A stretch of 64,000 nucleotides of DNA from a virus (taxonomy: Duplodnaviria; Caudoviricetes): IMG/VR virus record IMGVR_UViG_644736323_000003, positions 1,012 through 65,011 of that record; one strand, written 5' to 3'. The notes under the pieces are model-generated. The model saw only the letters and a list, made by a program, of their open reading frames with translations, was not told where the DNA came from and ran no database searches. Below, one piece after another: positions 10,317-63,657 of the stretch. The position numbers and the translations under genes were made by a program. Positions within the stretch are counted from its first letter, which is position 1. Every line of letters starts with the position of its first letter.

Positions 10317-11807
10317 ATGCTGACCGCGACCGACCTGTTCTGTGGTGCCGGAGGATCCGGGCTGGGCGCGACCGCCGTGCCCGGCATCCAGCTGGTGATG
10401 GCCGCCAACCACTCCCCGCGGGCAATCGAGACCCACGCCACCAACTTCCCCCACTGCCAGCACGACTGCGCGGACATCTCCCAGGTCGTGCCGCGCCGCT
10501 ACCGCCGCACGAACATCCTGTGGGCCTCCCCGGAGTGCACCAACCACACCACGGCCAAGGGCCGCAAGCGCCGCGAGCACAGCCAGGAAGGGCTGTTCGC
10601 CGAGCCGCTGCCCGACCACGTCGCCGAGCGCAGCCGCGCGACGATGTGGGACGTCATCCGGTTCGCCGAGGCGCACCTGTACGACGCGGTGATCGTGGAG
10701 AACGTCGTCGAGGCCGCCCTCTGGGCGCCGTTCCAGTCGTGGCTGCTGGCCATGGACGCCCTCGGCTACCAGCACCACGTCGTCTACCTCAACTCCATGC
10801 ACGCACCGGCGATCCGCGCGCCGCGCGCGCCGCAGTCCCGCGACCGGATGTACGTGGTGTTCTGGCGGCGCGGCAACCGCACGCCGGACCTGGAGGTCAG
10901 GCCGCACGGCCGGTGCTCCGGCTGCGACCGCGAGGTGGAGTGCCGCCAGGTGTTCAAGCGGCGCGGCACCGGCTGGCCCGCCGCGCGCTGGGGCCGCTAC
11001 CGCGCCCAGTACACCTACGTGTGCGCCACGCCCGGCTGCGGACGCCCGGTGGAGCCGTACGCGATGCCCGCCTCGGCGGTGCTCGACTGGTCCGTGCTCG
11101 GGCAGCGCATCGGCGACCGCGCGCGCCCGCTGTCCGAGAAGACGTTGGGCCGCATCCGCGCCGGGCTGGCCCGCTACGCCACCGCCCCGCAGCTGGTGCC
11201 CTCCGGTGGCACCTGGAACGAGACCGCCCAGCCTGCGAGCGAGCCGTTCCGTGCGCGCACCACCCGCGAGACCGAGGGCCTGGTCGTGCCGGTGGAAGGC
11301 CGGGTCGGGAACGCCGCCGCGCCGACCTGGCAGCCGATCCGGACCCAGACCACCCGGCACGAGTCCGCGCTCGTCGTCCCCTACTACAGCACCAGCGAGT
11401 CCGCGTTCCCCGCCGACCGGCCGCTGGGCGCCCTGACCACCGTCGACCGGTACGGCCTGACGACCCTGCCCGACACTCCTGCCGACCGGGCGATGGTGAT
11501 GCGCAACAACTCCGCCCCGAGCGGCACCGGCGCGCACCTGTCGACCCCGGCTCGCGAACCGCTGCGCACCCTCACCACCGCCGGGCACCAGTCCCTCGTG
11601 GCCTGGCCCGAGGCCATCCCCGCCGTCGAGGACTGCACCTTCCGAATGCTAAGCGTGCAGGAAATCCAGGCCGCGATGGCGTTCCGCCCCGACTACACGA
11701 TCACCGGCTCCAAGCGGGAGCAGGTCCACCAGCTCGGCAACGGCGTCACCCCGCCCGCCGCCGAGTTCCTGTTCCGCGCCGTCGCCGACTCGCTCGGCGC
11801 GAACTGA
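10317..11807 (+). CDS. Orphan DNA (cytosine-5) methyltransferase
   Basis: DLFCGAGG (motif I), SPEC (IV), ENV (VI), QSRDRMY (VIII), QLGNGV (X); no cognate restriction enzyme seen. Confidence 0.92.
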   Translation: MLTATDLFCGAGGSGLGATAVPGIQLVMAANHSPRAIETHATNFPHCQHDCADISQVVPRRYRRTNILWASPECTNHTTAKGRKRREHSQEGLFAEPLPDHVAERSRATMWDVIRFAEAHLYDAVIVENVVEAALWAPFQSWLLAMDALGYQHHVVYLNSMHAPAIRAPRAPQSRDRMYVVFWRRGNRTPDLEVRPHGRCSGCDREVECRQVFKRRGTGWPAARWGRYRAQYTYVCATPGCGRPVEPYAMPASAVLDWSVLGQRIGDRARPLSEKTLGRIRAGLARYATAPQLVPSGGTWNETAQPASEPFRARTTRETEGLVVPVEGRVGNAAAPTWQPIRTQTTRHESALVVPYYSTSESAFPADRPLGALTTVDRYGLTTLPDTPADRAMVMRNNSAPSGTGAHLSTPAREPLRTLTTAGHQSLVAWPEAIPAVEDCTFRMLSVQEIQAAMAFRPDYTITGSKREQVHQLGNGVTPPAAEFLFRAVADSLGAN

Positions 11808-16123: not shown

Positions 16124-16188
16124 GCACGCTGAACACCATGAGGGCCCCGCACCAGCACGGTGCGGGGCCTTCGCCCGGTTCAGCGTGC
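16124..16188. terminator. Long two-part hairpin ending the early operon
   Basis: GCACGCTGAAC/GTTCAGCGTGC outer stem; GGCCCCGCACC/GGTGCGGGGCC inner stem. Confidence 0.65.
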
Positions 16189-16362
16189 TTCGGCGTGACG
16201 GGTAGCGGCACTCGAACGGGGAGCGCACCCTCAAGAAGTGCCTGCAAACGCCGATGAGGTGGTGGTGACCTGCCGTCACCCCTCCGAGTCAAAGTGCGGT
16301 GTCGACCACCCGGTCGTGTCATTTTTGGTCGGCATGTGGTGCAATAACGAGAGACAACGCAT

Positions 16363-16378
16363 TCGAACAGACGTTCGA
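16363..16378. promoter_or_regulatory. LexA (SOS) box
   Basis: TCGAAC-AGAC-GTTCGA, exact match to the actinobacterial consensus TCGAAC-N4-GTTCGA. Confidence 0.85.
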
Positions 16379-16388
16379 TTGGAGTAGA

Positions 16389-17333
16389 ATGCGCCCCACG
16401 GAAGAGCAGCTCAGACTGCTCGCACTGTGCAAGGTCAAGGACGTCAACTGGTACCTCATCGCCCGCGAAGCGCAGCGCCCCGGCGGGGTGGACCGCCTGT
16501 GGAAAGCCCTCCCTCTGGAAGCCTCTGCTGACGCGACCAAGGCGATCAAGGCACTAAAGCCGCTCAACGGGGCTACCGATGAGTACATCGCGATGGCGCA
16601 AGCCGAGGTCGACAAGGTCCGCGAGGACGATGTCCGCCTGGTCACCGTGCTCGACGACGAGTTCCCTCCGAACCTGCGCTTGATCCCCAACGCGCCCCCG
16701 TTCCTGTTCGTGCGCGGGACCATGACCGACGCGGATCTGCGCAGCGTCGCAGTCGTGGGCACCCGCGATGCCAGCGAAGCCGGGCGCCAGCGCGCCGGAC
16801 GCATGGCGCGCGAACTGGTGGAGCGAGGGGTGACAGTCGTGTCGGGCTTGGCCCGCGGCATCGACACCGCAGCGCATACCGCCACCCTGAAGGCCGGTGG
16901 ACGGACGATCGCAGTGATCGGTACCGGAATCAACCGCTACTTCCCTGCCGAGAACCGGGTACTCACCGACAAGATCGCCACCGACGGACAAGGCGCGGTC
17001 GTATCGCAGTTCTGGCCCGACGCCAGCGGCGCTACCTGGACGTTCCCTCGCCGCAACATCACCATGTCAGGGATCGCTCAGGGGACGGTCGTCATCGAGG
17101 CTGGCAGCACCTCCGGCGCCAAGATGCAGGCGCGCGTCGCCTTGGAGCACGGCAAGAAGGTCTTCCTGATCAAGAGCCTGACCGAGCAGCAGGAGTGGGC
17201 ACGCAAGTACGTCGAGACACGAGGCGCGGTCCAGGTGGAGGACGTCAAGGCCGTGGCCGACGCACTCACCTCGCCTGAACGCATCCAGGCCGCCGATACC
17301 CTGAGGTCTCAACTAGTGATGGACTTCATCTGA
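16389..17333 (+). CDS. dprA: DprA/Smf-family protein (ShosA-like)
   Basis: FPPNLRLIPNAPPFLFVRG, SVAVVGTR, VVSGLARGID, IAVIGTG, FPRRN, VIEAGSTSGAKMQA; no C-terminal wHTH. Confidence 0.93.
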   Translation: MRPTEEQLRLLALCKVKDVNWYLIAREAQRPGGVDRLWKALPLEASADATKAIKALKPLNGATDEYIAMAQAEVDKVREDDVRLVTVLDDEFPPNLRLIPNAPPFLFVRGTMTDADLRSVAVVGTRDASEAGRQRAGRMARELVERGVTVVSGLARGIDTAAHTATLKAGGRTIAVIGTGINRYFPAENRVLTDKIATDGQGAVVSQFWPDASGATWTFPRRNITMSGIAQGTVVIEAGSTSGAKMQARVALEHGKKVFLIKSLTEQQEWARKYVETRGAVQVEDVKAVADALTSPERIQAADTLRSQLVMDFI

Positions 17334-17349
17334 CCGAGGGGGTGCGCAG

Positions 17350-18093
17350 GTGAACTACCAGCTCCCCCCACCGGCAGGTTTCGGCAACTGCAACGGGTGC
17401 GCCTACTTCGCCTCAGGGCCACCTCAGATCTGCCAGCAGTGTGCCTCGGAAACACTCGAACCGGCCGCACCGTGGTACTGCAGAGTGTGCGGCCAGCGTG
17501 TTGTCACGGAGCAGGACCGGTGCACCAACCGACTGTGCTCCGACCCTGGACGCCAGTTCGAGTTCAACCAGGCCATAGCCATGAAGACCGGCGCCCTTGA
17601 CACGGCAATCAAAGCGCACAAGTACTCCGGGCAGTGGGGATGGGGGATCATCTTCGCTCGTGTGCTCCTCGGGTACCTTGCGCGTGATCCTCGGGCAGCA
17701 GGCGCGGACTTGATCATCCCCATGCCGTCACGCCCGCTGCCGCCCGGCATCACCACCCGCAAAGGACACGACCACGCTGGCTGGATCATTGAATCAGCAG
17801 CGACCCAGGACGACAGGTACCCGTTCCGCTTCGCACCACCGGTGCTAATCAAGACACGGGACACCGAGCGCATGGTCTCCACCCGCGGCTACGCAGAACG
17901 CTGCACTCTGTCCAACGACATCTACAACGCGCTCCAAGTGCTCGACCCAGCCGCCGTGCACGGAGCCACGGTGGCAGTGGTCGACGACGTGTTCACCACG
18001 GGCAACACCCTCAATGCCGTGGCGCGTCGACTCCGCGAAGCCGGAGCCCGTGCCGTACGGGGCTTGACGCTCGCACGTGCCCCCTACCGCTAA
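17350..18093 (+). CDS. ComF-like phosphoribosyltransferase with N-terminal zinc ribbons (ShosT-like)
   Basis: CNGC, CQQC, CRVC, CTNRLC; PRPP loop VAVVDDVFTTGNT; C-terminal VRGLTLAR. Confidence 0.88.
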   Translation: MNYQLPPPAGFGNCNGCAYFASGPPQICQQCASETLEPAAPWYCRVCGQRVVTEQDRCTNRLCSDPGRQFEFNQAIAMKTGALDTAIKAHKYSGQWGWGIIFARVLLGYLARDPRAAGADLIIPMPSRPLPPGITTRKGHDHAGWIIESAATQDDRYPFRFAPPVLIKTRDTERMVSTRGYAERCTLSNDIYNALQVLDPAAVHGATVAVVDDVFTTGNTLNAVARRLREAGARAVRGLTLARAPYR

Positions 18094-18140
18094 GCGTCGA
18101 GCCTGATGCAGTCGGGCAGACAGCACCGACGAGCAGCACT

Positions 18141-18170
18141 GCGGCCCGGCATTGTGAGGTGCCGGGCCGC
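18141..18170. terminator. Hairpin between convergent operons
   Basis: GCGGCCCGGCA / TGCCGGGCCGC. Confidence 0.6.
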
Positions 18171-18194
18171 TTGATCGGACTGCGGTGAGTTGGG

Positions 18195-18389
18195 CTACCG
18201 GTCCATCGTCGGGTTGGGGTCGACGACGTCGCAGGAGGACGGGCTGCTGTCCGGCCACGACAGGTCGCCGTGCCGGTGGTGCCCAGCGTGCTCGCTGGTG
18301 AGCAAGCACCGCAGGGTGGGGCCGTCAGGCACGAGGTAGCAGGTCTGGCAGGTACCGCGTGGAGCCATCCAGGGGATGATGCTGGGCAT
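18195..18389 (-). CDS. Small Cys/His hypothetical protein
   Basis: TGATG coupling to the upstream gene. Confidence 0.4.
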   Translation of the reverse strand: MPSIIPWMAPRGTCQTCYLVPDGPTLRCLLTSEHAGHHRHGDLSWPDSSPSSCDVVDPNPTMDR

Positions 18390-19144
18390 CAGCTGTCCTC
18401 TCCGTAGGTGATCGCGAGGACGACCGCGGCGGCGTCGTCCACGGCGCGGTCTGGATCGTCGAGCGGCGCCGCCTGCCCGGCCGCCACCAGCTCTTCGGCC
18501 AGCGCCTGCGGCTCACCGCCGAGCTGCGTCCCCCGTTTCTCCAGCTCGGCACCGCCGAGCCGGACGCCGTTGCTGGTGAGCACCAGCGCGGCCGGGCTGG
18601 CGTCCTGCCCGCGCAAAGCCGTCCACGCGATCGTGGAGACCGAGGCGTGGGCTAAGCCGAGCAGCACGTAGGAGTCGAGCGCGGTCATGACGGGCAGCGC
18701 CTCCAGCGCGGCCCGGCTGGTGGCGGTGATGGTCGACCCGGCCAGCGCGTGTCGCACCCACTGGCCAACCACTTGGGCGGGCGTCAGCCGCAGCAGCTCG
18801 CCGCGCTCGGGGTACCAAGCGTGCGCGGCGACCTGCCCGGCGGTCGCTACCTCCACCCGTCCGTCCAGCCCCACGGACACCACCGCCGCCGTGGCGTTCG
18901 GCGAGCCGGGGTAGGCCGGGACGGTGTCCGCTGCGGCGAGCAGACCGGCCTGAGCGTCCCGGTGCGCGGCCACGATCGCCGCGACCTCGGCCGCGCGCTG
19001 CGCGGTGCGCACCACCGCCGCGCTGTGGCCGATCCCGTCGACCAGCGCGGCGCCCGCGCCGAGCGGGGTCACCTCGACGTGCACGGCGTCGGCCAGCGGA
19101 CCGGCCTTCCCCTCGGCGAGGGCGGTCCCGTACGTGATCTTCAC
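18389..19144 (-). CDS. PP2C/SpoIIE-fold phosphatase-like protein with altered metal ligands
   Basis: AALVDGIGH, NATA, TAGQ (usually AGD), LTSNG (usually SDG), DDAAAV. Confidence 0.7.
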   Translation of the reverse strand: MKITYGTALAEGKAGPLADAVHVEVTPLGAGAALVDGIGHSAAVVRTAQRAAEVAAIVAAHRDAQAGLLAAADTVPAYPGSPNATAAVVSVGLDGRVEVATAGQVAAHAWYPERGELLRLTPAQVVGQWVRHALAGSTITATSRAALEALPVMTALDSYVLLGLAHASVSTIAWTALRGQDASPAALVLTSNGVRLGGAELEKRGTQLGGEPQALAEELVAAGQAAPLDDPDRAVDDAAAVVLAITYGEDS

Positions 19145-19507: not shown

Positions 19508-20236
19508 TCAGGCGACGGGGACGCCGAGGCTGAGCAGCACGGCGAGGACGACGAACGCGGGGAACACGAGGCGCTGCTCGACCGGGCCGCCGGTGCGGAA
19601 CCGGAGCGGACGGGGCGGGCGGATCTCGTACCAGGTCTCCCCGGCGATGGGGATCGGCCAGAGGACGGGGCAGCCGGACAGGGTCAGGGCGTCCCCAAGG
19701 CAGTGCACCAGGCACCCGGTCCCCGCGGCGATCCCCAGCGGCCAGCCGATCCCCGCCAGGTCCCCAGGGAGATCCCCACCGCTGGTTCCCCAGAGGGCGA
19801 TCCCCGCGATCCCCGCGAGCGGGAGTACCCAGTCCCCAAGGGCGTCCCCGGCCAGTGCGATCCCCAGCAGCACGGTCCCCACCACGAACGGCGTTCCCCA
19901 CGCAGCGCTCCCCGCGCCGACCCCGATCCCCACGAGCACCGCGAACACGAGGGTGTGGGTGGCGTGACGGTGTTCCCCACGGTGCCGCTCGTCGCGGGGA
20001 CCTCGCGTGCGGGCGTAGAGCCAGCGGCTCCCCGCGCGCAGCGCCTGGGACAGCAGGCCGGTGACGGGGCCGAGGAGGCGGGAGGCGCGGGCGCCGGGGT
20101 GGTCGAGGTCGGGGACGAGGGCGAACCCGGCGGTGACCAGCGCCAGGACCACGGCCTGCGCGGTGGTGGTGGCGGTGAGCGGGGCGAGGGCGAGCCCGGC
20201 GCACAGGCCGGTGAGGGCGTGGGTGCGGCCCATCAT
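19508..20236 (-). CDS. Membrane-bound metal-dependent hydrolase (YdjM/YbcI-like)
   Basis: MMGRTHALTG, VPDLDHPG, HRHATH, HCLGDALT.SGCP.LWP; several TM segments. Confidence 0.85.
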   Translation of the reverse strand: MMGRTHALTGLCAGLALAPLTATTTAQAVVLALVTAGFALVPDLDHPGARASRLLGPVTGLLSQALRAGSRWLYARTRGPRDERHRGEHRHATHTLVFAVLVGIGVGAGSAAWGTPFVVGTVLLGIALAGDALGDWVLPLAGIAGIALWGTSGGDLPGDLAGIGWPLGIAAGTGCLVHCLGDALTLSGCPVLWPIPIAGETWYEIRPPRPLRFRTGGPVEQRLVFPAFVVLAVLLSLGVPVA

Positions 20237-20677
20237 GGGGATCGCCTCCAAGGGGATCGGGTGGGGGCGGGCGGCCCCAGGGCTGGGGTGGGGACTGGGG
20301 ATGGGTGCGAGGTGGGGAACCCGTGGGGATGCGCTCCCCGGCCAGCGGTGGGGACGGGGACTGGGGATCAGCGCCAGCGGCGGGAGCGGGTCCCCGCGCA
20401 GTAGGGGCACACCAGCCGGTCGTGGGGATCGGAGCGCCATCCCCGCTCGCGCAGCAGACCGAAGCTCCAGTCGACGTCCCCAGGGTCGGCGATCCGGAGT
20501 TCGATCGGGGTGCCGCATCCCCAGCCGCACTCGACGTGCCCGATCCCCAGCCGGTCCCCGTCGGGGTTGTGGTGGCGGCAGCGGGTCGCGTGCTCGTCCG
20601 ATCCCCACCCGTTCTTGTGGACCTGGATGATGTCGATCCCCGCGGTGCGTCCCCGGCGGATGGTGGCGGTGGGGATG
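19638..20677. repeat. Dense GGGGA/TCCCC motif array (core GGGGATC); candidate clt locus
   Basis: About 43 pentamers and 15 exact GATCCCC/GGGGATC heptamers in ~1 kb (hand count). Confidence 0.8.
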
Positions 20678-21102
20678 TGCTCGGGGTGGTGGTCGAGGTG
20701 GGTGCAGCGGAGGGTGAACACGTCGGCCTCGCGCAGCTCGGGTTCCGGCGGCTCCGCCGCGGCGGGCGGGGCGGCGGGTGCCGGAGACGGGGTGGACGGG
20801 GCCTGCGGAACCGGCGGCGGCGCGGGGGACTGCGGCGCGGGGTCCGGCACGACGGGGGCTGCGGGCTGCTGCACGACCGGCGGGTCGGGCACGACGCTGG
20901 GCGGCGCGGCGGGTGCCGAGGGGGCCTCGGGCGCGGCGCCGCGCTGCGGGGGTGCGGCTGCCGCGCTCTGCGGGGACGCGCTGGTCGGGGGCGGAGCGTC
21001 GCCGGGTGCCGGCTGCTGCGGGTCCGCGGGGTTGGGCTGCATCGCGTGCCAGATCAGGTAGCCGAACCCGGCCAGGACCAGGATGCCGAACAAGGTGCTC
21101 AC
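20368..21102 (-). CDS. Membrane-anchored Pro-rich protein with C-terminal Cys/His domain
   Basis: N-terminal TM LFGILVLAGFGYLIW; Pro/Ala linker; CGWGC, CPYC. Confidence 0.65.
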   Translation of the reverse strand: MSTLFGILVLAGFGYLIWHAMQPNPADPQQPAPGDAPPPTSASPQSAAAAPPQRGAAPEAPSAPAAPPSVVPDPPVVQQPAAPVVPDPAPQSPAPPPVPQAPSTPSPAPAAPPAAAEPPEPELREADVFTLRCTHLDHHPEHIPTATIRRGRTAGIDIIQVHKNGWGSDEHATRCRHHNPDGDRLGIGHVECGWGCGTPIELRIADPGDVDWSFGLLRERGWRSDPHDRLVCPYCAGTRSRRWR

Positions 21103-21365
21103 GTCTGCGGTCTCCGTAACTCTGTGTGCATGTTCGTCCGGTGAGATGCATGGGGGCCTGCATGGGCGGGCCCCGCAGTAGTGCGGGTGACATTTAGGCT
21201 GGTCAGAGCGGCGAAGCAGTCTGCCAGGCGACGCTGATACAGCTCATACATCTGATACATTTCCGCAGGTCGAGCGGCGTTTCTCATGCACAGCCCCATG
21301 CATCCGGCAGCCCCCGCCGTGTATGGGCGGCCTGCATGAAGTGCATGAGGGTCGACTACTCAGGG
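21103..21365. promoter_or_regulatory. Structured intergenic region directly downstream of traB
   Basis: Seven TGCATG/CATGCA-type hexamers, three 9-bp-period ATACA repeats, inverted arms. Confidence 0.55.
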
Positions 21366-23624
21366 TTACGACAAGGCGGTGCGGATGTCGGCCACGGTGG
21401 CGGACATCCCCTGCGCGCGGCGCACGGTCGGGAGCGTCCGGCCTGCGGCGCCCAGCTCGCCGGACAGCGCCCGCGCGCGCCGCCGCACCAGCTCGGTGTC
21501 GGCGCCCTCGGGCACGTACCCGGCCAGCCGGGCGAGGTCGCCCAGGGTCAGCCACTCGTCGTCCGGGCGCCCGGCCAGCTGCGCCAGCAGGACCGCGGCG
21601 ACCGGCTGGTCCAGGCGCGTCCTGCGGACCAGCCCCGCGACGGGGGCGGGAGGTGCAGCTGGCGGCGTAGGGGCGGGTGCTGCGGGGGTGACGGCGGACG
21701 GGAACTGCATCCGCGAATGGGTCGGCGCGTCCGGGCGTTCGGGTGCGCCGACGGAGGCGGGCGTGGGGGGTGCTTCACCGCGCATCAGCAGCGCCAGGCG
21801 CTCCAGCGACTCGGCGCGCGAGGCGGCGGCGGCGTCCTCACCGGCGTGCGGGAGCAGCCGCTCGGCGGCGGCGGCGGTAGGGCGCCAGCCCTCGATCCGG
21901 GGCAGGCCGACGTACAGGTCCTCGGCGTAGGGCGCGGGCTGGCTCGCGTGGTCCTCCCGGCGGGGCATGAAGTCGAGCTGCACCTGCATCTGGCGGGACT
22001 CCACGCCGCACATCAGCCCGCGGCCCTTGGTGTTGGGCAGCAGGTACGGGCTGTAGGGCAGGCCGGGGATCAGGTTCGCCGACGACTTGGAGTTGACCCG
22101 CATGGCCAGGAAGTTCCGGGTCGTCAGGCTGGAGCGGAGCATCTCGCTGCCGCCGAAGACCTCCTGGCCGGGGATCTGGCTGGCGGCGATGATGCCCATG
22201 TTGAGCTTGTTGATGCGCTTGGCCAGCGCGCCGAAGACGCCGCCGAGCGCGGCGAAGACCTGGTCGCACTCGTCGATGAAGGTCATGATCCCCGGCGGGA
22301 CGACGCCGCCGCACGGGCAGGCGGGGTCCGGGTGGGCGCCGTCGGGCAGGCACGGCGCGGTCGTCCAGGGGTTGATCTTGCCGAGGCGGTGGCTCTCCAT
22401 CCAGGTCTGCCGGTGGTCGGCCTCGACCGTGAGCCATCCGGCGAGGTCGGCGACGTGGTCGGCGGAGAGCACCGGGTAGTCGGCGTGCTCGGCCAGCACT
22501 GGGCTGGACGCGCCGCGCTGCGGGTCCATGAACGCGATCAGGTAGCCGAGCTGGCGGCACCGGTAGGCCAGCCCGTCGAACAGCGAGGACTTGCCCATGC
22601 GGGTGCCCGCGAGGACGAACCCGTTGTGCGCGCCGTCCGCCGAGGCGATGTCCCAGAACGCCGAGGTGCCGTCGTCGATATAGCCGCCGATGCGCACCGA
22701 GCAGGCGTTGTCCGGCGCGGAGACCAACTCGGGGGTGAAGCGGGCGCTGCTCATGGTGTGGGCCGCGCGCCGGATGATCTGCATGTGCAGCTGCCCGGTG
22801 TCCTCCAGCACCGGGTTGTCCTGGTCGAACACCAGCTCCTGCCCGCCGTTCTCGTCGGTGGGCAGCTTCAGCTTCAGGGCGCCGACCAGCTTGCCCAGCG
22901 CGAGGTTGGCGGCGTCGAGGGTGGTGCCGCTGTCCCCGGACTGGACCACGAACGACAACCGCCCCTGCCCGAGGTCCCTGGGGTTGACCAGTCGGGTGTC
23001 GGGCAGGTGCTTGACCGCGCCCGCCGCCCAGCGCTCGACGTAGACCTGGAGGTCCGCGGCCACGTCCACGACCTCCCCCTCGATGGCATCCTCGGCCGCC
23101 GTGGTCTCGCTCTCCTCGGCGGCGGTCAGTGCGGCGCGGGCGGCGCGGACCTGCCGCAGCAGCGCGCGCCGCGAGCGCCAGCGGGCCAGCTGCCAGCGGC
23201 CGGTGGAGACCACCACGGCCACCAGGTAGCCGCCCAGCACGATCGGCTCGCCGCCGAACAGGCCCAGCCCGGCGCCCGCCGTCGCCGCGCCGCCGAGCAC
23301 CTTGCGGACCGGCGGCAGGCCCTCGTGCAGCTCGGTGCCGTGCGCGGCGGCCAGCGCGAACCCGCTGGTGGCCAGGGAGGTGATCGCGCTGCCGCCGATG
23401 CCGATCAGCAGCATCGCGGCCCCGCCCTGCCCGAGGCTGGACATCATGTTCGCGTGCCACAGCAGCGGTCCGGTGGTGGCGGTGATGCCGACGGCGGCGA
23501 CGGGCATCGCGGCCACGCGCCGCTCGACGCGCAGTGCGCGGGCGACCTGCTCGGGGGTGAGGGGCTTGACGTCGTCGGGCTTGGCGGGCGGGGGCGCGGT
23601 GGGCCGCTGCTCCAGCTCGGTCAT
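21366..23624 (-). CDS. traB: TraB/TraSA-type FtsK/SpoIIIE conjugative DNA translocase
   Basis: GAGGAG RBS; N-terminal TM helices; Walker A LAGTRMGKSS; Walker B MTFIDECD; IAASQ; C-terminal wHTH-like domain. Confidence 0.85.
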   Translation of the reverse strand: MTELEQRPTAPPPAKPDDVKPLTPEQVARALRVERRVAAMPVAAVGITATTGPLLWHANMMSSLGQGGAAMLLIGIGGSAITSLATSGFALAAAHGTELHEGLPPVRKVLGGAATAGAGLGLFGGEPIVLGGYLVAVVVSTGRWQLARWRSRRALLRQVRAARAALTAAEESETTAAEDAIEGEVVDVAADLQVYVERWAAGAVKHLPDTRLVNPRDLGQGRLSFVVQSGDSGTTLDAANLALGKLVGALKLKLPTDENGGQELVFDQDNPVLEDTGQLHMQIIRRAAHTMSSARFTPELVSAPDNACSVRIGGYIDDGTSAFWDIASADGAHNGFVLAGTRMGKSSLFDGLAYRCRQLGYLIAFMDPQRGASSPVLAEHADYPVLSADHVADLAGWLTVEADHRQTWMESHRLGKINPWTTAPCLPDGAHPDPACPCGGVVPPGIMTFIDECDQVFAALGGVFGALAKRINKLNMGIIAASQIPGQEVFGGSEMLRSSLTTRNFLAMRVNSKSSANLIPGLPYSPYLLPNTKGRGLMCGVESRQMQVQLDFMPRREDHASQPAPYAEDLYVGLPRIEGWRPTAAAAERLLPHAGEDAAAASRAESLERLALLMRGEAPPTPASVGAPERPDAPTHSRMQFPSAVTPAAPAPTPPAAPPAPVAGLVRRTRLDQPVAAVLLAQLAGRPDDEWLTLGDLARLAGYVPEGADTELVRRRARALSGELGAAGRTLPTVRRAQGMSATVADIRTALS

Positions 23625-25211: not shown

Positions 25212-26582
25212 TTACTCGTTGACGGCGTCGGAGCCGGGGGCGGGCGGGTTCTCGCGCACGTAGCGCGCCTTGAACTCGGTGAGCTTCTTCTTCAGGTGCG
25301 TCACCCCGAACTGCTTGTCGATCTGGGGGCCGGTCACGGACGCCGGGTCGCCGCCGCGCGCGCGGACCTGCTCCGCGTACCACTGGTAGGCGCGCTCGCG
25401 CAGGGAGTCCTCCCGGCGGAAGGCGGTGACGTTCGAGCGCTCCGGCGCGGTCTGCGCTCGGGCGGGCTCGGCCTCCTCGGCGGCGACCACGGGGGCGGCG
25501 GGGAGAGCAGGGCGCTCGGCCGGGGCCGGGATGCTCGACTGCTCCGGGGCGGGAGGCAGTTGGTCGGCGGACTTCTCCGCCGCAGCGGACTGCCGCTCGA
25601 CGCGCTCCGGCTTCCGCTTTCGCTCGGCGCGGGCCTGCGCGCGCTCGGCGTCCTCGGCGGTGATCACCTCGGTGGCCCGGTCCAGCGCGGTGGCCGCGTC
25701 CGGGATGCGGTCGGTGACCGCCGTGCGCCAGGCCGTCCAGGTGTGCCGGGGCGCGACCAGCCAGCGCGCTACGCCCAGCTCGGGCCGAGGCGGGATCGGC
25801 GTGGGCGCCCAGCCCAAGCGGGCGATCTCGGCGGCACGCCGGTCCCGGTCGGCCCGGTGCTCGCGCAGCTCCCAGCCCAGCACGGAGGCCACCGACAGCG
25901 CCGCGAAGATCACCCCCAATGTGGAGGGGGTCGACCAGCTCGGGGACCACTCGCGGTAGTTCACGGCCGAGGCGAACGCGACGATCGCCCACATCACGCC
26001 CCGGTAGAGCGCCGGGGAGTCCCCCCGCAACCGCGCCTTGTGCGCCAAGCGGGCCATGAACAGCCCCAGCGTCTCCAGGGTCAGGCCGATCGCGAACGCG
26101 ATGGCGAACGCCAGCGCGCTGACGTGCTCGGCGTCGACCCGCAGCTCCTGCTCCACGAATGGCACGAAGCGCGGGTGCAGGGCAGCGATCTGGCCGAACA
26201 TCGCGGCGGTGGTCCCGGACAGCAGTGGGATGGCCAGCACCGCCGCCCACAGCCGGTCGCCACGGTCGGTGGCCGTCACCTCCGGCGCCGGGACGTCGGG
26301 CCCCTCAGCCGGGACAGGCGGCGCGGTCAGGGCCTCGGTCTGCGCGCGCAGCAGCTCCACCCGCGCCTCGGCCTCGGCGCGCTCCAGCTCGCGCAGCCGC
26401 TTGTTGTGCTCGGCGGCGCGCGCGGCCTCGGCGCGGGCGACGTCGGCGATGGCGGCCTGGGCGCGGGTCACCTCGGCCTCGGCGGCGGCGCGCGTGCGGA
26501 TCGCGTCGGCCTGCGCGCGGGCCAGCAGGCGCCGGGCGTACCGGGTGGTCGGCTCGGGCGTCGGCGGGGGCGCGGTGTCCAC
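25212..26582 (-). CDS. SpdB2/DUF2637-like spread protein
   Basis: N-terminal coiled coil, four TM helices (...FASAVNYREW...), Pro-rich segment, basic C-terminal domain. Confidence 0.7.
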   Translation of the reverse strand: MDTAPPPTPEPTTRYARRLLARAQADAIRTRAAAEAEVTRAQAAIADVARAEAARAAEHNKRLRELERAEAEARVELLRAQTEALTAPPVPAEGPDVPAPEVTATDRGDRLWAAVLAIPLLSGTTAAMFGQIAALHPRFVPFVEQELRVDAEHVSALAFAIAFAIGLTLETLGLFMARLAHKARLRGDSPALYRGVMWAIVAFASAVNYREWSPSWSTPSTLGVIFAALSVASVLGWELREHRADRDRRAAEIARLGWAPTPIPPRPELGVARWLVAPRHTWTAWRTAVTDRIPDAATALDRATEVITAEDAERAQARAERKRKPERVERQSAAAEKSADQLPPAPEQSSIPAPAERPALPAAPVVAAEEAEPARAQTAPERSNVTAFRREDSLRERAYQWYAEQVRARGGDPASVTGPQIDKQFGVTHLKKKLTEFKARYVRENPPAPGSDAVNE

Positions 26583-30845: not shown

Positions 30846-31646
30846 GTGGCAGCAGACACCAGCGGAAACTCGGCACAGCGCATCGCCCAGGACCTACTGG
30901 CGGCGATCGAGCGTGGTGAGTACGCGCCAGGCCACCAACTGCCCAGCCAGAACGTCATCAAGGCCCGGTACGGGGTGGCAGCCCAGACGGTGCAGAACGC
31001 CTTCGCGCTGCTGCATCAGCAGGGCGTGACCGAGGGGCGTCACGGCGCGGGCACGTTCGTGCGCGAGCACCGCCCGACCGTCGTCATCCCCATCGACCAC
31101 TCGGTGTACCGCGACGACCGCGGCTACTACTTCGGTCGTGCCACCCAGTCCTATGACCTGATCGGGAAGCCGAGCGTCACGGTCGGCCGCGCGCCGCAGC
31201 AGGTTGCCCAGCGCCTGAGCGTGCCTTCGGGCAGTTCGGTCGTGGTGCGCCACCGGGTGCTCGGCACCGCCGGGGAGGGCGGGCAGCCGGGGCAGATCGC
31301 CACCTCGTACCTGCCCGGCTGGCTGGCCGAGGAGTTGCCGGTGGTCGGCGAGGCGTCGACGGGGTCCGGCGGGATCTACGACCGGATCGAGGAGTGGGCG
31401 GGCGGCCCGTTGTCGTGGCCCACGCCCAGGTACGGGGCGGTGCCTGCCTCGGCGGAGGACGGGACGAGCCTGCGGGTCGCGCCGGGCACTCCGTTGCTGA
31501 CGCGGTACCGCGTCGCGGTCCTGCCCGACGGCCGCCCGGTGGAGCTGAACGTCACCCGTTGGCCGGGCAGCCGCTACGAGTTCGAGGCTGGTGACGTTGT
31601 CCGTGATGAGTCGGCCGCGTGGCCGACCGCACCTTTGCGGCCGTAG
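30846..31646 (+). CDS. GntR-family repressor (KorA/KorSA/TraR-like, UTRA domain)
   Basis: IAQDLLAAIERGEYAPGHQLPSQ...YGVAAQTVQNAF.LL...G.GTFVR; HutC-type C-terminal domain. Confidence 0.92.
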   Translation: MAADTSGNSAQRIAQDLLAAIERGEYAPGHQLPSQNVIKARYGVAAQTVQNAFALLHQQGVTEGRHGAGTFVREHRPTVVIPIDHSVYRDDRGYYFGRATQSYDLIGKPSVTVGRAPQQVAQRLSVPSGSSVVVRHRVLGTAGEGGQPGQIATSYLPGWLAEELPVVGEASTGSGGIYDRIEEWAGGPLSWPTPRYGAVPASAEDGTSLRVAPGTPLLTRYRVAVLPDGRPVELNVTRWPGSRYEFEAGDVVRDESAAWPTAPLRP

Positions 31647-38697: not shown

Positions 38698-39146
38698 TGC
38701 CGCCGATGCCGAAGGCCAGCCCTGCGCGGCGGAACAAGTCGACGACGCGTGCCACGCTGACCCGCGACCACGCTGTCGTCGCCCCGGACCTGCCCGACCG
38801 CGAAGAGGGCTGGCACTACCTGACCGAGCGCTGGTGGGCCGACACCTGGGCCTCCCCGATGGCCCCCGAGTACGACGGCTCCGACCAGCACGGCCTGTAC
38901 ATGCTGGCCGACCTGGTCGACGCCTACTGGCGCGAGCCCTCCCCGCGTGCCCGCGCCGCGCTCGCAGGCGAGATCAGGCTGCAGCGGCAGTGCTACGGGC
39001 TCACCCCGATCGACCGGCGCCGCCTGCAGTGGGAGATCGAGCGCACGGATGAGGCGCAGGACCGTGGGGCGCAGCGGCGCGCGGAGCGGGCCAAGAAGGC
39101 CGCCGAGCCCGGCGCTGATCCCCGGTCGGTGCTGCGGCTGGCGTGA
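38694..39146 (+). CDS. Terminase small subunit
   Basis: WWADTWASPMA...EIRLQRQCYGLTPIDRRRLQWEI; precedes the large subunit. Confidence 0.88.
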   Translation: MMPPMPKASPARRNKSTTRATLTRDHAVVAPDLPDREEGWHYLTERWWADTWASPMAPEYDGSDQHGLYMLADLVDAYWREPSPRARAALAGEIRLQRQCYGLTPIDRRRLQWEIERTDEAQDRGAQRRAERAKKAAEPGADPRSVLRLA

Positions 39147-40756
39147 CCGGGCTGATCGTCCCGCCCTACGACGAGGAGCCGTGGCCGACGCTCGGACCGC
39201 AGGTCGTAGACCTGATCGAGGCCGCGGCGACGTTCGGGCCGGGCGACCTGCGCGGCGAGCCCGCGGTGATCGACGACGAGAAGCGAGCGTTGATCTACCG
39301 GGCGTACGAGGTCTACCCGAAGGGGCACCCGCGCGCGGGGAAGCGTCGGTTCAAGCGGGTCGCGGTCTCGACGCGCAAGGGCACGGCGAAGACCGAGCTG
39401 GCCGCGTGGATCGGGTTCGCTGAGCTGCACCCCGACGGGCCGGTGAGGTGCGACGGGTTCGACGCGCACGGTGAGCCGGTCGGGCGCCCGGTGCGGGACC
39501 CGTACATCCCGATGGTCGCCTACACCGAGGAGCAGACCGAGGAGCTGGCGTACGCGGCGCTGCTGGTGATGTGCCAGGAGGGCGCGGACGGCGACCTGTT
39601 CGACGCGGGTCTGGAGCGGATCACCCGGATCAACGGCGACGGCAAGGCCGTCGCGCTGGCCGGGTCACCGAACGCTCGCGACGGCGCACGCACGAGCTTC
39701 CAGCACTTCGACGAGCCGCACCGGATGACCAGTCCGCGGCTGCTGGGCGCGCACCAGACGATGCTGCAGAACATCCCGAAGCGGCCGATGGCCGACCCGT
39801 GGTCGTTGTCCACCACCACCGCCGGCGTGCCCGGCGAGGGCTCGGTGGCGGAGGTGGAGAAGGGGTACGCGGAGAAGATCGCCGAGGGGCGCACGAAGGA
39901 CGCCACGTTCTTCTTCTTCCACCGCGAGGCCTCGCCCTCCCACGACCTGGACACCGAGGGCGGCCTGCGAGCGGCGATCGTGGAGGCCTCCGGCCCGGCG
40001 GTCGCGGCCTGGTCCGACATCGACTCGATCATGTCGCTGTTCCACCAGGACGACACCGACCGCAGTTACTTCGAGCGGGTGTGGCTGAACAGGTGGGTGG
40101 CGTCGAGCAGGCAGGCGTTCGACCCGGTGCGCTGGGCAGACCTCGAGATCAGCGAGGTCATCCCGCACGGGGAGCCGATCACGCTGGGCTTCGACGGCGC
40201 CCGCTGGCGAGACGCCTGCGGGCTGATGGCCACGCACATCGAGACCGGCTTCCAGTGGCCGCTCGCCTGGTGGGAAAACGTCGACGGGGACGAGGACTGG
40301 GAAGTCTCCGACGAGCAGGTCGACGGCGCGTTCGCCGAGGCGATGGAGCTCTACCAGGTGCGGATGGCGTACAACGACCCGCCGCGGTTCGAGGCGAACG
40401 TCGCGCGGTGGGCAGGCCGGTGGGGTGAAAAGCGGGTGCTGGAGTGGTACACCAACCGCCCGGTGCAGATCGGCAAGGCCATGAGGGCGTTCGCAACCGC
40501 CCAACGGACCGGCGCGCTCACCCACGACGGGAACGAGGCGTACGCCCGGCACATCGCCAACGCGCGCAAGGGCGACCTGCGCGTGCGCGACGACGACGAG
40601 ACCCCGCTATGGACGATCTACAAGGAGCGTCCGGACAGCGTGAAGTTCATCGACTTGGCCATGGCGGGCTGCCTGTCCTGGCAGGCGCGACTGGATGTGC
40701 TGGCCAAGGGCTCCTGGGAGAAGAAGCCTAAGAGCACGATGATCATCCTGCGGTGA
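39143..40756 (+). CDS. Terminase large subunit
   Basis: RKGTAKTE (Walker A), QHFDEPH (Walker B), TLGFDGA...D, KFIDLAMA. Confidence 0.93.
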   Translation: MTGLIVPPYDEEPWPTLGPQVVDLIEAAATFGPGDLRGEPAVIDDEKRALIYRAYEVYPKGHPRAGKRRFKRVAVSTRKGTAKTELAAWIGFAELHPDGPVRCDGFDAHGEPVGRPVRDPYIPMVAYTEEQTEELAYAALLVMCQEGADGDLFDAGLERITRINGDGKAVALAGSPNARDGARTSFQHFDEPHRMTSPRLLGAHQTMLQNIPKRPMADPWSLSTTTAGVPGEGSVAEVEKGYAEKIAEGRTKDATFFFFHREASPSHDLDTEGGLRAAIVEASGPAVAAWSDIDSIMSLFHQDDTDRSYFERVWLNRWVASSRQAFDPVRWADLEISEVIPHGEPITLGFDGARWRDACGLMATHIETGFQWPLAWWENVDGDEDWEVSDEQVDGAFAEAMELYQVRMAYNDPPRFEANVARWAGRWGEKRVLEWYTNRPVQIGKAMRAFATAQRTGALTHDGNEAYARHIANARKGDLRVRDDDETPLWTIYKERPDSVKFIDLAMAGCLSWQARLDVLAKGSWEKKPKSTMIILR

Positions 40757-63580: not shown

Positions 63581-63657
63581 TGGTGCCCCCGGTGCGACTC
63601 GAACGCACACTGGACGGATTTTGAGTCCGCTGCCTCTGCCGATTGGGCTACGGGGGC
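63581..63657 (-). tRNA. tRNA-Leu(CAA), integration target (att junction in its 3' part)
   Basis: GCCCCCG/CGGGGGC acceptor stem, anticodon loop CTCAAAA, GTTCGAGTC T-loop, CCA end facing the prophage. Confidence 0.95.

What the first reader, a model, noticed from the sequence alone, without database searches (positions are those of the whole stretch)
19638..20677. GGGGATC motif array written into two coding sequences downstream of traB (candidate clt / TraB recognition locus)
Seen (hand count): about 43 GGGGA/TCCCC pentamers and 15 exact GATCCCC/GGGGATC heptamers in ~1 kb; a rough base-composition estimate gives about 5 and under 1. Gly codons in the hydrolase gene become GGG and fall in GI/GT/GD/GS pairs, whereas the rest of the window prefers GGC. 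The 130-bp spacer 20237-20367 holds about 9 copies. Orientation comes in blocks (TCCCC 19690-20035, mostly GGGGA 20110-20430, TCCCC 20435-20655). Known: TraB loads at clt loci made of short direct repeats, usually near tra. Inference: this is the clt, imposed on the proteins by codon and residue choice. Alternatives: a G-quadruplex region or a centromere-like array.
Basis: partly seen in the sequence, partly recalled or inferred. Interest (0 to 1): 0.86.

Follow-up and report, generated by a model that had tools for sequence, protein, structure and literature searches.

The report
Heptamer array overwritten on phage genes
A 1-kb stretch of a prophage, just downstream of its plasmid-style DNA pump gene, is packed with about 45 copies of a short DNA word forced into two protein-coding genes; the word changes between related phages while its place stays fixed, so it is a real DNA-level signal, but probably not the pump's main docking site.

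Summary
Window 19638-20677 holds 43 GGGGA/TCCCC pentamers and 15 GGGGATC heptamers. It is the densest such 1-kb window in the 8.25-Mb genome (38, next best 17).

The excess comes from codon and residue choice. The words fall in all three reading frames and also fill the non-coding spacer.

The context needs correcting. The element is a 66-kb tailed prophage at tRNA-Leu that carries a TraB/FtsK-like pump module. It is not a plasmid or AICE.

In 13 related elements the array sits at the same place (orfX C-terminus, spacer, middle of ydjM). The word differs: GGGGAYC, GGGTACC, GGGTAGC or a mixture, at homologous Gly codons. This rules out G-quadruplexes and peptide repeats.

Twenty-eight YdjM orthologues with no traB-family or orfX match within reach lack the array.

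The array type does not follow the pump's DNA-recognition helix. A second array does follow it: 8-bp TGCA-core repeats in the traB-orfX gap. That second array is the better clt candidate.

In one genome of the same genus, ydjM with the array lies beside an unrelated pump of the same build.

My reading is an accessory cis-acting protein-binding array of the transfer module, with the binder unknown.

First-stage readers of this scan noted the same feature on other DNA, but nobody followed it up.

The parts
19638..20677 (.). Array 2, the finding: about 45 copies of GGGGA(Y)C / its complement over the orfX C-terminal part, the spacer and the middle of ydjM
   Evidence: Counts are. It is the genome-wide maximum. 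The same position in relatives is shown.
19509..20236 (-). ydjM: YdjM-family inner-membrane putative metal-dependent hydrolase, 242 aa. Its central transmembrane part carries 24 pentamers, mostly as Gly codon GGG followed by A.
   Evidence: Pfam PF04307 E 4.7e-23. PHROG 20744 'hydrolase' E 9.5e-46. Codon alignment with relatives. It is 67-75% identical between L009 and the array-bearing loci compared, the best-conserved gene of the module.
20237..20367 (.). Non-coding spacer between orfX and ydjM, made almost wholly of motif copies. On the sense (minus) strand they read GATCCCC. One copy overlaps the orfX stop codon and one abuts the ydjM start codon.
   Evidence: Across 8 loci the spacers hold 52 antisense and 3 sense heptamers.
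20368..21102 (-). orfX: 244 aa with an N-terminal transmembrane helix, a Pro-rich linker and a conserved Cys/His-rich C-terminal domain of about 110 aa (20368-20736). Only this domain carries the motif.
   Evidence: Translation. Alignments A2 and A3. AF2 model with pLDDT above 90 for the domain. No match in PDB.
21103..21365 (.). Array 1: traB-orfX intergenic region. It has a terminator hairpin, about 7 CATGCA/TGCATGGG repeats in both orientations, and one conserved GACCTGCGGAAA box (its inverted partner is seen in relatives). This is the better clt / TraB-recognition candidate.
   Evidence: Present in all members of this TraB family examined except L023. The 8-mer class follows the wHTH helix-3 class.
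21366..23624 (-). traB-like gene: 752 aa with N-terminal transmembrane helices, an FtsK-type motor (Walker A GTRMGKSS) and a C-terminal winged helix
   Evidence: Translation. No Pfam, PHROG or PDB sequence hit. AF2 model plus Foldseek: FtsK motor 6t8o E 2.8e-11, then TcpA and EccC.
25212..26582 (-). DUF2637 membrane protein, a possible Spd-like protein, in the same leftward operon
   Evidence: Pfam PF10935 E 1.6e-40
30975..31646 (+). GntR/UTRA regulator, divergent from the leftward transfer operon (Kor/TraR-like position)
   Evidence: Pfam UTRA E 2.4e-16. Homologue of the GntR gene of L009.
63581..63621 (.). Right att repeat of the prophage: 41 bp, the 3' part of tRNA-Leu(CAA). The left copy lies 2366 bp before the window start. 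The integrase domain lies at 62354-62869 (minus strand).
   Evidence: tRNA, repeat, integrase hit. Virion genes: TerL 39143-40756, portal, capsid, tape measure. GH25 lysin.

Best explanation
The array is a selected, cis-acting DNA element of the phage's TraB-type transfer module. It is a dense field of about 45 asymmetric heptamers of the family GGG-K-A-N-C, here GGGGAYC. The heptamers are written into the cheapest nearby coding sequence, the Gly-rich membrane segments of ydjM and the orfX C-terminal domain, and they fill the spacer between the two genes.

I think it most likely works as an accessory protein-binding platform next to the pump's primary recognition repeats (array 1, the TGCA-core 8-mers). 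It would hold or orient this part of the phage genome at the membrane pump, so that double-stranded phage DNA can be passed between hyphal compartments without virions.

Shown: the enrichment; its DNA-level origin; its conserved position and block orientation; the stepwise change of the word between lineages; and its restriction to ydjM copies that lie beside TraB-like pumps.

Inferred: that a protein binds it; that the function is transfer-related; and who the binder is. The pump's winged helix is not the best candidate.
For: 1. It is the unique genome-wide maximum.
2. The words fall in all three frames and in non-coding DNA. Synonymous recoding removes about 80% of the copies in ydjM (24 observed against 5.2) and more in orfX.
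3. In 13 related elements the array has the same position and the same block pattern (sense in orfX C-terminus and ydjM, antisense in the spacer).
4. At homologous Gly codons the word is G GGG ATC here, GGT ACC in L009 and GGT AGC in L013. L016 is a mosaic of the first two, and L012, L020, L021, L027, L029 and L031 also hold both words. The variants are one-base neighbours, and GGTATC is never used.
5. 28 YdjM orthologues of 39-65% identity with no traB-family or orfX match found within reach average 0.3 sense heptamers. They have 6 G-[ITSDEN] dipeptides against 7-19 in the phage-type ydjM genes (19 here). ydjM of phage PIS 136 and of two Amycolatopsis plasmids has no array.
6. The array always lies within 2 kb of the 3' end of a membrane pump with a transmembrane, Walker ATPase and wHTH build. 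This includes G138, where the pump is unrelated in sequence and the array runs into the pump's own 3' linker.
7. There is precedent for cis sites written inside spd genes of Streptomyces plasmids (SpdA2/sps, PMC4170104) and for clt loci with two repeat families that overlap tra genes (pWTY27, PMC3583192).
Against: No binding or transfer data exist. The array type is uncoupled from the pump's recognition helix: L009 (GGTACC) and L011 (GGGGATC) have nearly the same helix 3, and L013 and L014 likewise.

L022 and L028 have the pump, array 1 and orfX but no array 2, so the pump family works without it. L023 has the pump and ydjM without either array.

In G138 only ydjM is shared with this prophage. 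The array may therefore belong to ydjM rather than to transfer.

The orientation bias of the spacer could equally reflect avoidance of G-rich 5'-UTR RNA. The loci are related to one another, so the counts are not independent.
Confidence: 0.4

Rival explanations
1. The array is the clt proper: the winged helix of the TraB-like pump recognises GGGGAYC and the hexamer assembles here.
For: It lies at and after the 3' end of the pump gene, where clt loci usually lie (PMC4447253, PMC3583192). It is made of short repeats that differ between elements. The oppositely oriented blocks would suit two motors loaded in opposite directions on a circular molecule. In G138 the array enters the pump gene's 3' part.
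Against: Array 1 fits published clt anatomy better: 7-13 copies of an 8-bp repeat, non-coding, next to traB. Its 8-mer class follows the helix-3 class (EVQxAGR with TGCAAAGC 5 of 5; LRARAR with TGCAACAC 2 of 2). Array 2's type does not. L022 and L028 lack array 2. G138 has a pump with an unrelated sequence but the same word family.
Confidence: 0.15
2. The array is a binding field for another sequence-specific protein, from host or phage, that serves stability, partition or silencing. Comparable cases are the centromere-like arrays of short heptads bound by omega/ParR-type proteins, or SpdA2/sps of pIJ101, which affects segregational stability.
For: There are many short repeats and both orientations are tolerated, which is typical of such centromeres (own knowledge). 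sps sites lie inside the binder's own gene (PMC4170104). The Saccharothrix coeruleofusca relative is assembled as a separate 57.5-kb contig, possibly an episome, and carries a ParB_N gene. The motif type may follow the host genus: both Actinosynnema-genus copies are GGGGA type, Saccharothrix is GGTACC, and Lentzea has both.
Against: No ParA/ParB pair was found in this prophage with the queries used. The prophage is integrated here. OrfX, the zinc-finger-like candidate, occurs without the array (L022) and the array occurs without OrfX (G138). Spacing is irregular and not helically phased.
Confidence: 0.2
3. The array is a cluster of targets for a DNA modification or restriction-type enzyme, acting as an epigenetic switch or a sink. 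The prophage's own C5 cytosine methyltransferase is one candidate.
For: A C5 methylase gene lies in the prophage (10317-11807) and in L012. The words contain or resemble restriction-type sites (GATC, GGTACC, GGWCC). One-base specificity steps are typical of methyltransferase evolution (own knowledge).
Against: No methylase was seen in most of the loci fetched. The core GGGGA is not palindromic and only 17 of 45 copies hold GATC. No known system needs about 45 clustered sites. The motif is neither avoided nor enriched elsewhere in the prophage.
Confidence: 0.08
4. The effect is at RNA or translation level: rare Gly codons that slow translation of membrane segments, a C-rich Rho-loading spacer, or pairing between spacer and coding copies.
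For: Copies in ydjM sit at Gly codons in transmembrane segments. The spacer RNA is C-rich and its orientation is nearly uniform. RNA-library contigs cover the region at low depth.
Against: The words fall in all three frames and fill non-coding DNA. GGUACC is not C-rich. The RNA fold of the whole array is no more stable than shuffles (z 0.75). Chromosomal YdjM orthologues have the same membrane segments without these codons.
Confidence: 0.07
5. The array has no function. It is a by-product of slippage, biased repair or gene conversion spreading a short word.
For: The spacers vary in length (59-255 bp) and hold tandem runs such as AGATCCCC x4 in L014, which suggests slippage.
Against: Sites are kept at homologous codons across pumps only 41-65% identical. 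Words change coordinately at dozens of sites. Amino acids are altered to fit. No such arrays occur elsewhere in the genome.
Confidence: 0.05
6. The array is a G-quadruplex-forming region.
For: The plus strand of the spacer has many G4 runs.
Against: In L009 the same positions hold GGTACC, and in L013 GGTAGC. Neither can form quadruplexes.
Confidence: 0.02

Closest known systems
clt loci / TraB recognition sequences of Streptomyces conjugative plasmids (pSVH1 8-bp TRS, pJV1 nine 9-bp repeats, pWTY27 DC1/DC2, pIJ101)
   Same: Short element-specific repeats at or just after the 3' end of the gene for a membrane FtsK-like pump with a C-terminal winged helix. Partial overlap with coding sequence is known (pWTY27, pIJ101), as are two repeat families in one clt (PMC3583192, PMC4447253).
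   Different: Known clt loci are 50-175 bp with 3-9 repeats and are mostly non-coding. This array is about 1-1.5 kb with 30-70 copies of a 7-mer, mostly inside two genes. It does not follow the pump's recognition helix, and it lies beside a second array that does. The carrier is a tailed prophage.
SpdA2 / sps of pIJ101 and other Streptomyces plasmids (Thoma et al. 2014, PMC4170104)
   Same: A cis-acting DNA site of the transfer/spread region written inside a spd gene's coding sequence and visible as a recurrent peptide motif. It is bound by a small zinc-finger-like protein and affects stability rather than transfer.
   Different: sps is a 12-bp palindrome in 1-3 copies that is conserved between plasmids. 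Here there are about 45 copies of an asymmetric 7-mer that changes between lineages. OrfX and the array can each occur without the other (L022, G138).
KOPS / SRS guidance of FtsK / SpoIIIE
   Same: Short G-rich asymmetric words (GGGNAGGG) are read by a winged helix of an FtsK-type motor. Orientation matters, and blocks of opposite polarity define a direction. The array words begin GGG-N-A.
   Different: KOPS are dispersed and strand-skewed over the whole chromosome. The array word shows no skew in the host (0.50-0.53). The prophage has no gamma domain.
Streptomyces plasmid-phage pZL12 / phiZL12 and other phage-borne TraB modules
   Same: A temperate tailed phage that also carries a tra gene for conjugal transfer (cited in PMC3583192). 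Other windows of this scan report phage-borne TraB-clt-(YdjM) modules (e1-5869525, e1-3467758).
   Different: No coding-embedded heptamer array has been described for them, as far as the library searches and my knowledge go.

Membership tests
[quoted passage not shown] | Lies on the element next to or overlapping the 3' end of the tra gene | tested here: met
   The array starts 690 bp after the traB stop codon, and 13 related elements show the same layout
[quoted passage not shown] | Several copies of a short (7-9 bp) element-specific repeat | tested here: met
   About 45 copies. The word differs between elements. The number and extent are far above known clt loci.
[quoted passage not shown] | The repeat sequence co-varies with the recognition helix of the cognate TraB winged helix | tested here: not met
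   L009/L011 and L013/L014 share helix-3 classes but differ in array type. L012 and L020 differ in helix 3 but share the array type. Array 1 does co-vary. The sample is small and phylogenetically confounded.
[quoted passage not shown] | Present wherever the pump family is present (required in cis) | tested here: not met
   L022, L028 and L023 have the pump without this array
[quoted passage not shown] | Bound by TraB in vitro and sufficient in cis for mobilisation | not testable with these tools
   Needs EMSA/ChIP and mating assays
TraB (FtsK-like conjugative dsDNA translocase) - for the neighbouring gene 21366-23624 | N-terminal membrane anchor, FtsK-type motor with Walker A/B, C-terminal wHTH | tested here: met
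   AF2 model, and Foldseek FtsK motor E 2.8e-11 with TM 0.64 on the target. The helices and wHTH are in the model. Pfam FtsK_SpoIIIE is not hit.
Centromere-like heptad arrays (omega / ParR / ParG type) | Contiguous short repeats plus a cognate small DNA-binding protein and a partition ATPase on the element | tested here: inconclusive
   The repeats are present but irregularly spaced. No ParA or ParB was found in the window with the queries used, but many small ORFs were not assigned.
G-quadruplex region | Conserved runs of three or more G in four tracts | tested here: not met
   Relatives have GGTACC or GGTAGC at the same sites

The most novel reading that the evidence does not exclude
ydjM with its overwritten heptamer field is a portable 'DNA handle' cassette that different, unrelated TraB-like pumps in actinomycete phages have recruited. 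An as yet unidentified factor reads the oriented heptamers. That factor could be host-encoded, or a part of the pump other than the winged helix. It would tether or thread the phage genome at the membrane, giving temperate phages a virion-independent way to spread through mycelium. The one-base drift of the word (GGGGATC - GGGGACC - GGGTACC - GGGTAGC), with mixed arrays as intermediates, would then record how a multi-site recognition code changes without loss of function.
Probability: 0.25. Interest if true: 0.8.

Novelty: new variant of a known kind. Interest (0 to 1): 0.62.

Why it matters
The array is an unusually clear case of a DNA signal overriding protein coding. About 45 sites are kept at homologous codons while the word itself drifts by single bases, and amino acids change to fit (Gly-Ile, Gly-Thr, Gly-Ser).

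It lies in a phage-borne version of the one-protein Streptomyces conjugation system. How that system recognises and threads DNA, especially circular double-stranded DNA, is still open.

The locus offers two separable arrays beside one pump. One follows the pump's recognition helix and one does not. Both are short enough to test by EMSA, pull-down and mobilisation assays.

If the array proves to be a transfer or tethering site, it would support virion-independent spread of temperate phages in mycelial bacteria. It would also give a natural series for studying how a multi-copy recognition code evolves.

Tried and rejected
- Peptide repeat: rejected, because the words fall in all three frames and in non-coding DNA.
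- General property of YdjM genes: rejected.
- Host KOPS-like word: GGGGATC, GGGGACC and GGGTACC show no strand skew (0.50-0.53). The host's most skewed octamers are CGGGGGAG-type.
- Phage-encoded FtsK gamma domain as the binder: one relative (L015) has one, but this prophage has none.
- RNA structure: the 981-nt array RNA folds no better than shuffles (z 0.75, 20 shuffles).
- OrfX as a recognisable DNA-binding fold: the model of the C-terminal domain is confident, but Foldseek found nothing at E <= 0.001 and VIA-align gave Z < 3. This says nothing either way about DNA binding.
- Sequence searches of the pump: Pfam, PHROGs and a PDB profile search gave nothing. tblastn against 50,697 phage records gave no match. 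The first genome-contig scan found nothing.
- att search inside the window failed. The repeat lies 2.4 kb outside the window.
- RNA-library contigs (4 runs, 2 studies) cover 19.3-20.8 kb only as short low-depth pieces, against a high-depth contig over 16.2-18.9 kb. These are contigs and DNA carry-over is possible, so I draw no conclusion on expression.
- Replication genes near the array: PHROG/Pfam scans of early genes gave no replication function, so the origin hypothesis could not be tested.
- The Vogelmann 2011 paper could not be read. TRS details rest on citing papers.
Full report
OBSERVATION

Window 19638-20677 holds 14 GGGGA plus 29 TCCCC and 15 GGGGATC/GATCCCC. Every other 1-kb bin of the window holds 0-7 pentamers.

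The assembly is one 8,248,144-bp contig with 73.7% G+C. Across it, the densest 1-kb window has 38 pentamers against a next best of 17 (mean 2.6, sd 2.0). For heptamers the figures are 12 against 6.

GENES

All genes here are on the minus strand.
- The traB-like gene is 21366-23624 (752 aa).
- A 263-bp gap follows it.
- orfX is 20368-21102. It encodes a transmembrane helix, a Pro-rich linker and a Cys/His-rich C-terminal domain.
- A 131-bp spacer follows.
- ydjM is 19509-20236 (PF04307).

DNA LEVEL, NOT PEPTIDE LEVEL

Sense-strand copies fall in all three frames in both genes, and the non-coding spacer is nearly all motif.

I recoded the genes synonymously using the window's codon usage. ydjM then gives 5.2 +/- 2.0 pentamers (maximum 12 of 3000 trials) against 24 observed. 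The orfX C-terminal part gives 1.5 against 11. The orfX N-terminal part and traB are at expectation.

Residue choice is shifted as well. Gly is followed by I/T/S/D/E/N 19 times here and 7-19 times in the other phage-type ydjM genes. In 28 YdjM orthologues with no pump found nearby the mean is 6.1 (maximum 9). Sense heptamers number 12 here, 6-13 in ten of the eleven other phage-type genes (3 in G138, whose word GGGGACG this pattern misses), and 0.3 on average in those orthologues.

CONTEXT

The element is a tailed prophage.
- Large terminase, portal, major head and tape-measure genes lie at 39-54 kb, and a GH25 lysin at 59.5 kb.
- A tyrosine integrase domain lies at 62354-62869, beside tRNA-Leu(CAA).
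- A 41-bp direct repeat of the tRNA 3' part lies 2366 bp before the window start. The element is therefore about 66 kb.

The pump has no Pfam, PHROG or PDB sequence match. Its AlphaFold model (pLDDT 68) matches FtsK motor domains best (6t8o, E 2.8e-11), then TcpA and EccC. The model has N-terminal helices and a C-terminal winged helix.

The family is rare: 38 proteins at E < 1e-10 among 5.8 billion. Named members come from Saccharothrix, Lentzea, Prauserella and a 'Streptomyces sp.' that the genome collection files in this family. Several carrier contigs are 57-84 kb and are listed as viral in IMG/VR.

No tool confirmed this.

RELATIVES

The gene order traB, orfX, ydjM is conserved. An unbiased k-mer scan of each locus finds its strongest local enrichment at the same place. 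The word, however, differs.
- GGGGAYC only: this window, L011, L014/L019 and L015.
- GGTACC only: L009 from Saccharothrix coeruleofusca, with 73 GGTAC in 1.8 kb against 2.7 expected.
- GGGTAGC: L013, in a thinner array.
- Both GGGGAYC and GGTACC: L012, L016, L020, L021, L027, L029 and L031.

A codon alignment of ydjM shows the words at homologous Gly codons. Here the codons are G GGG ATC (Gly-Ile) and in L009 GGT ACC (Gly-Thr). L016 is a mosaic of the two. L013, seen in a separate scan, has GGT AGC (Gly-Ser).

The variants are single-base neighbours. The fourth combination, GGTATC, is never used.

YdjM is the most conserved protein of the module, at 67-75% identity against 44-65% for the pump in the array-bearing loci.

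Block orientation is also conserved. Over 8 loci the spacers hold 52 antisense and 3 sense heptamers, while ydjM holds 78 sense and 13 antisense. In L009 only the flanking base makes the word asymmetric, and there the spacer holds 12 antisense and 1 sense.

These facts exclude G-quadruplexes and a peptide repeat. They show long-term selection on DNA sites.

CONTROLS WITHOUT THE PUMP

YdjM homologues occur in 320 of 401 genomes sampled from the family. Twenty-seven of the best loci (59-65% identical) have 0-4 GGGGA/TCCCC per gene. These loci carry only 1.5 kb on each side of the gene and were not searched for a pump; I take them as chromosomal because every sampled genome of several genera has one.

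The host's own second YdjM copy (39% identical) has no sense heptamers. Four extra ydjM copies in the same genus have no pump or orfX match and no such array.

ydjM of Saccharomonospora phage PIS 136 and of two Amycolatopsis plasmids shows no array either.

IS IT THE CLT?

Three results argue against the simple form of that reading.

First, the traB-orfX gap holds a second array in nearly every member of the pump family. After a terminator hairpin come 7-13 copies of an element-specific 8-mer with a TGCA core. They form two oppositely oriented groups around conserved GACCTGCGGAAA boxes. The 8-mers are:
- CCCATGCA here;
- CTGCAAAG in L012/16/21/29/31;
- CTGCAACAG in L020;
- TGCAACAC in L013/14;
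- TGCATCAG in L015;
- ATGCAAGC in L011;
- TGCAGGGG in L022.

This matches published clt anatomy (PMC3583192, PMC4447253). Its 8-mer class follows the class of helix 3 of the pump's winged helix. The type of array 2 does not. L009 and L011 share a helix class, as do L013 and L014, yet each pair differs in array 2. L012 and L020 differ in helix class but share the array-2 type. The sample is small and phylogenetically confounded, but the discordances all point the same way.

Second, L022 is an integrase-bearing, AICE-like element without ydjM, and L028 has only a distant ydjM. Both have the pump, array 1 and orfX but no array 2. L023 from Prauserella has the pump and ydjM separated by NUDIX and WhiB genes, and has neither array.

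Third, G138 is a genome of the host's genus. There a 66%-identical ydjM with a GGGGAC array lies directly after an 821-aa protein. That protein has transmembrane helices, a Walker A motif (GASRSGKST) and a C-terminal winged helix. It resembles the window's pump only weakly and only in that last domain. There is no orfX, and no other gene is shared with this prophage. The array also runs through the Gly-Thr/Ser linker at the 3' end of that pump gene.

The array therefore travels with ydjM and is found only beside pumps of this build. It is not tied to one pump family or one recognition helix.

OTHER TESTS

- The array RNA is not unusually structured (z 0.75).
- The word is not strand-skewed in the host chromosome.
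- The prophage has no FtsK gamma domain.
- The OrfX C-terminal domain folds confidently but matches nothing solved.
- A C5 methylase lies in the prophage, but I could not link it to the word.
- RNA-library contigs cover the locus only at low depth.

READING

I am confident (about 0.85) that this is a selected cis-acting DNA element.

My most likely mechanism (0.4) is an accessory protein-binding field of the transfer module, next to the primary pump recognition repeats. Its block polarity may help to hold or thread the DNA at the membrane pump. The binder is unknown.

A precedent for sites written into spd genes is SpdA2/sps of pIJ101, which affects stability rather than transfer (PMC4170104). 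A centromere-like or stability role is therefore the main rival (0.2). The simple clt reading follows (0.15).

EARLIER NOTES OF THIS SCAN

First-stage notes on this window already saw the prophage-borne cassette and the repeat-rich gap after traB (e1-5955698, e1-5955706). A first-stage note on another genome saw TGGGGATC 8-mers with GGTACC variants in a hydrolase gene beside traB (e1-5952585); it was not followed up. I saw the same mixed type in relatives I fetched myself.

Follow-up reports on other phages describe mirror-symmetric 8-bp arrays after traB that follow the pump's tail (e1-3467758) and a TraB-clt-SpdB-YdjM module (e1-5869525). They agree with my reading of array 1. I used them only as leads.

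Noticed in passing
window 21103-21365: The traB-orfX gap holds about 7 CATGCA/TGCATGGG repeats in two orientations plus one conserved GACCTGCGGAAA box. In relatives the 8-mer differs and follows the pump's wHTH helix-3 class, which makes it the better clt candidate. The 66-aa ORF 21099-21299 here is probably not a gene.
   Followed up: yes
window -2366 and 63581-63621; 62354-62869: A 41-bp direct repeat of the 3' part of tRNA-Leu(CAA) bounds a prophage of about 66 kb with a tyrosine integrase next to the tRNA.
   Followed up: yes
window 20368-20736 (orfX C-terminal domain): The conserved Cys/His-rich domain of about 110 aa (CPYCAGTRSRxWR tail) folds confidently as two beta-beta-alpha units. 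It has no match in PDB by Foldseek or VIA-align, so it may be a new small metal-binding fold on a membrane anchor.
   Followed up: partly
window 21366-23624: The pump family has an FtsK-like fold but escapes Pfam FtsK_SpoIIIE, PHROGs and PDB profile searches, so annotation pipelines call it hypothetical. One member is named a TrmB family regulator.
   Followed up: yes
L062:5533-7998 (G138): An 821-aa protein with transmembrane helices, Walker A/B motifs and a C-terminal winged helix has no Pfam hit and no similarity to the window's pump beyond the last domain. Its Gly-Thr/Ser linker is encoded by GGGGAC repeats. The gap before ydjM holds GGACGGTCACCGTCG-type repeats that may be its own recognition site.
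   Followed up: partly
whole genome G000: The most strand-skewed octamers of the host are CTCCCCCG, CTCCCCCA and GCTCCCCC (86% on one replichore strand), whose complement is CGGGGGAG. This is a candidate KOPS-like word for this actinomycete. The cumulative GC skew extremes lie at about 0.04 and 4.1 Mb.
   Followed up: no
window 16168-18954: In three strand-specific RNA runs of one study, a single high-depth contig covers the DprA-PRTase pair and part of the next gene, while the transfer operon is covered only by short low-depth pieces. These are contigs only, so this is no measure of expression.
   Followed up: no
L009 (JAGINV010000002.1, 57,518 bp): The Saccharothrix coeruleofusca relative is a separate contig of phage size with a ParB_N gene and is listed as a viral genome in IMG/VR. 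It may be an episomal prophage.
   Followed up: no
L068:3900-5300 (G331): Upstream of another ydjM copy lies a dense field of GTCGG / TCGGGTCGG and CGGTCTCACCC tandem repeats. It is a different word in a different context and is not explained.
   Followed up: no
window 10317-11807: A C5 cytosine DNA methyltransferase of 496 aa lies in the prophage early region. Its target is unknown.
   Followed up: no
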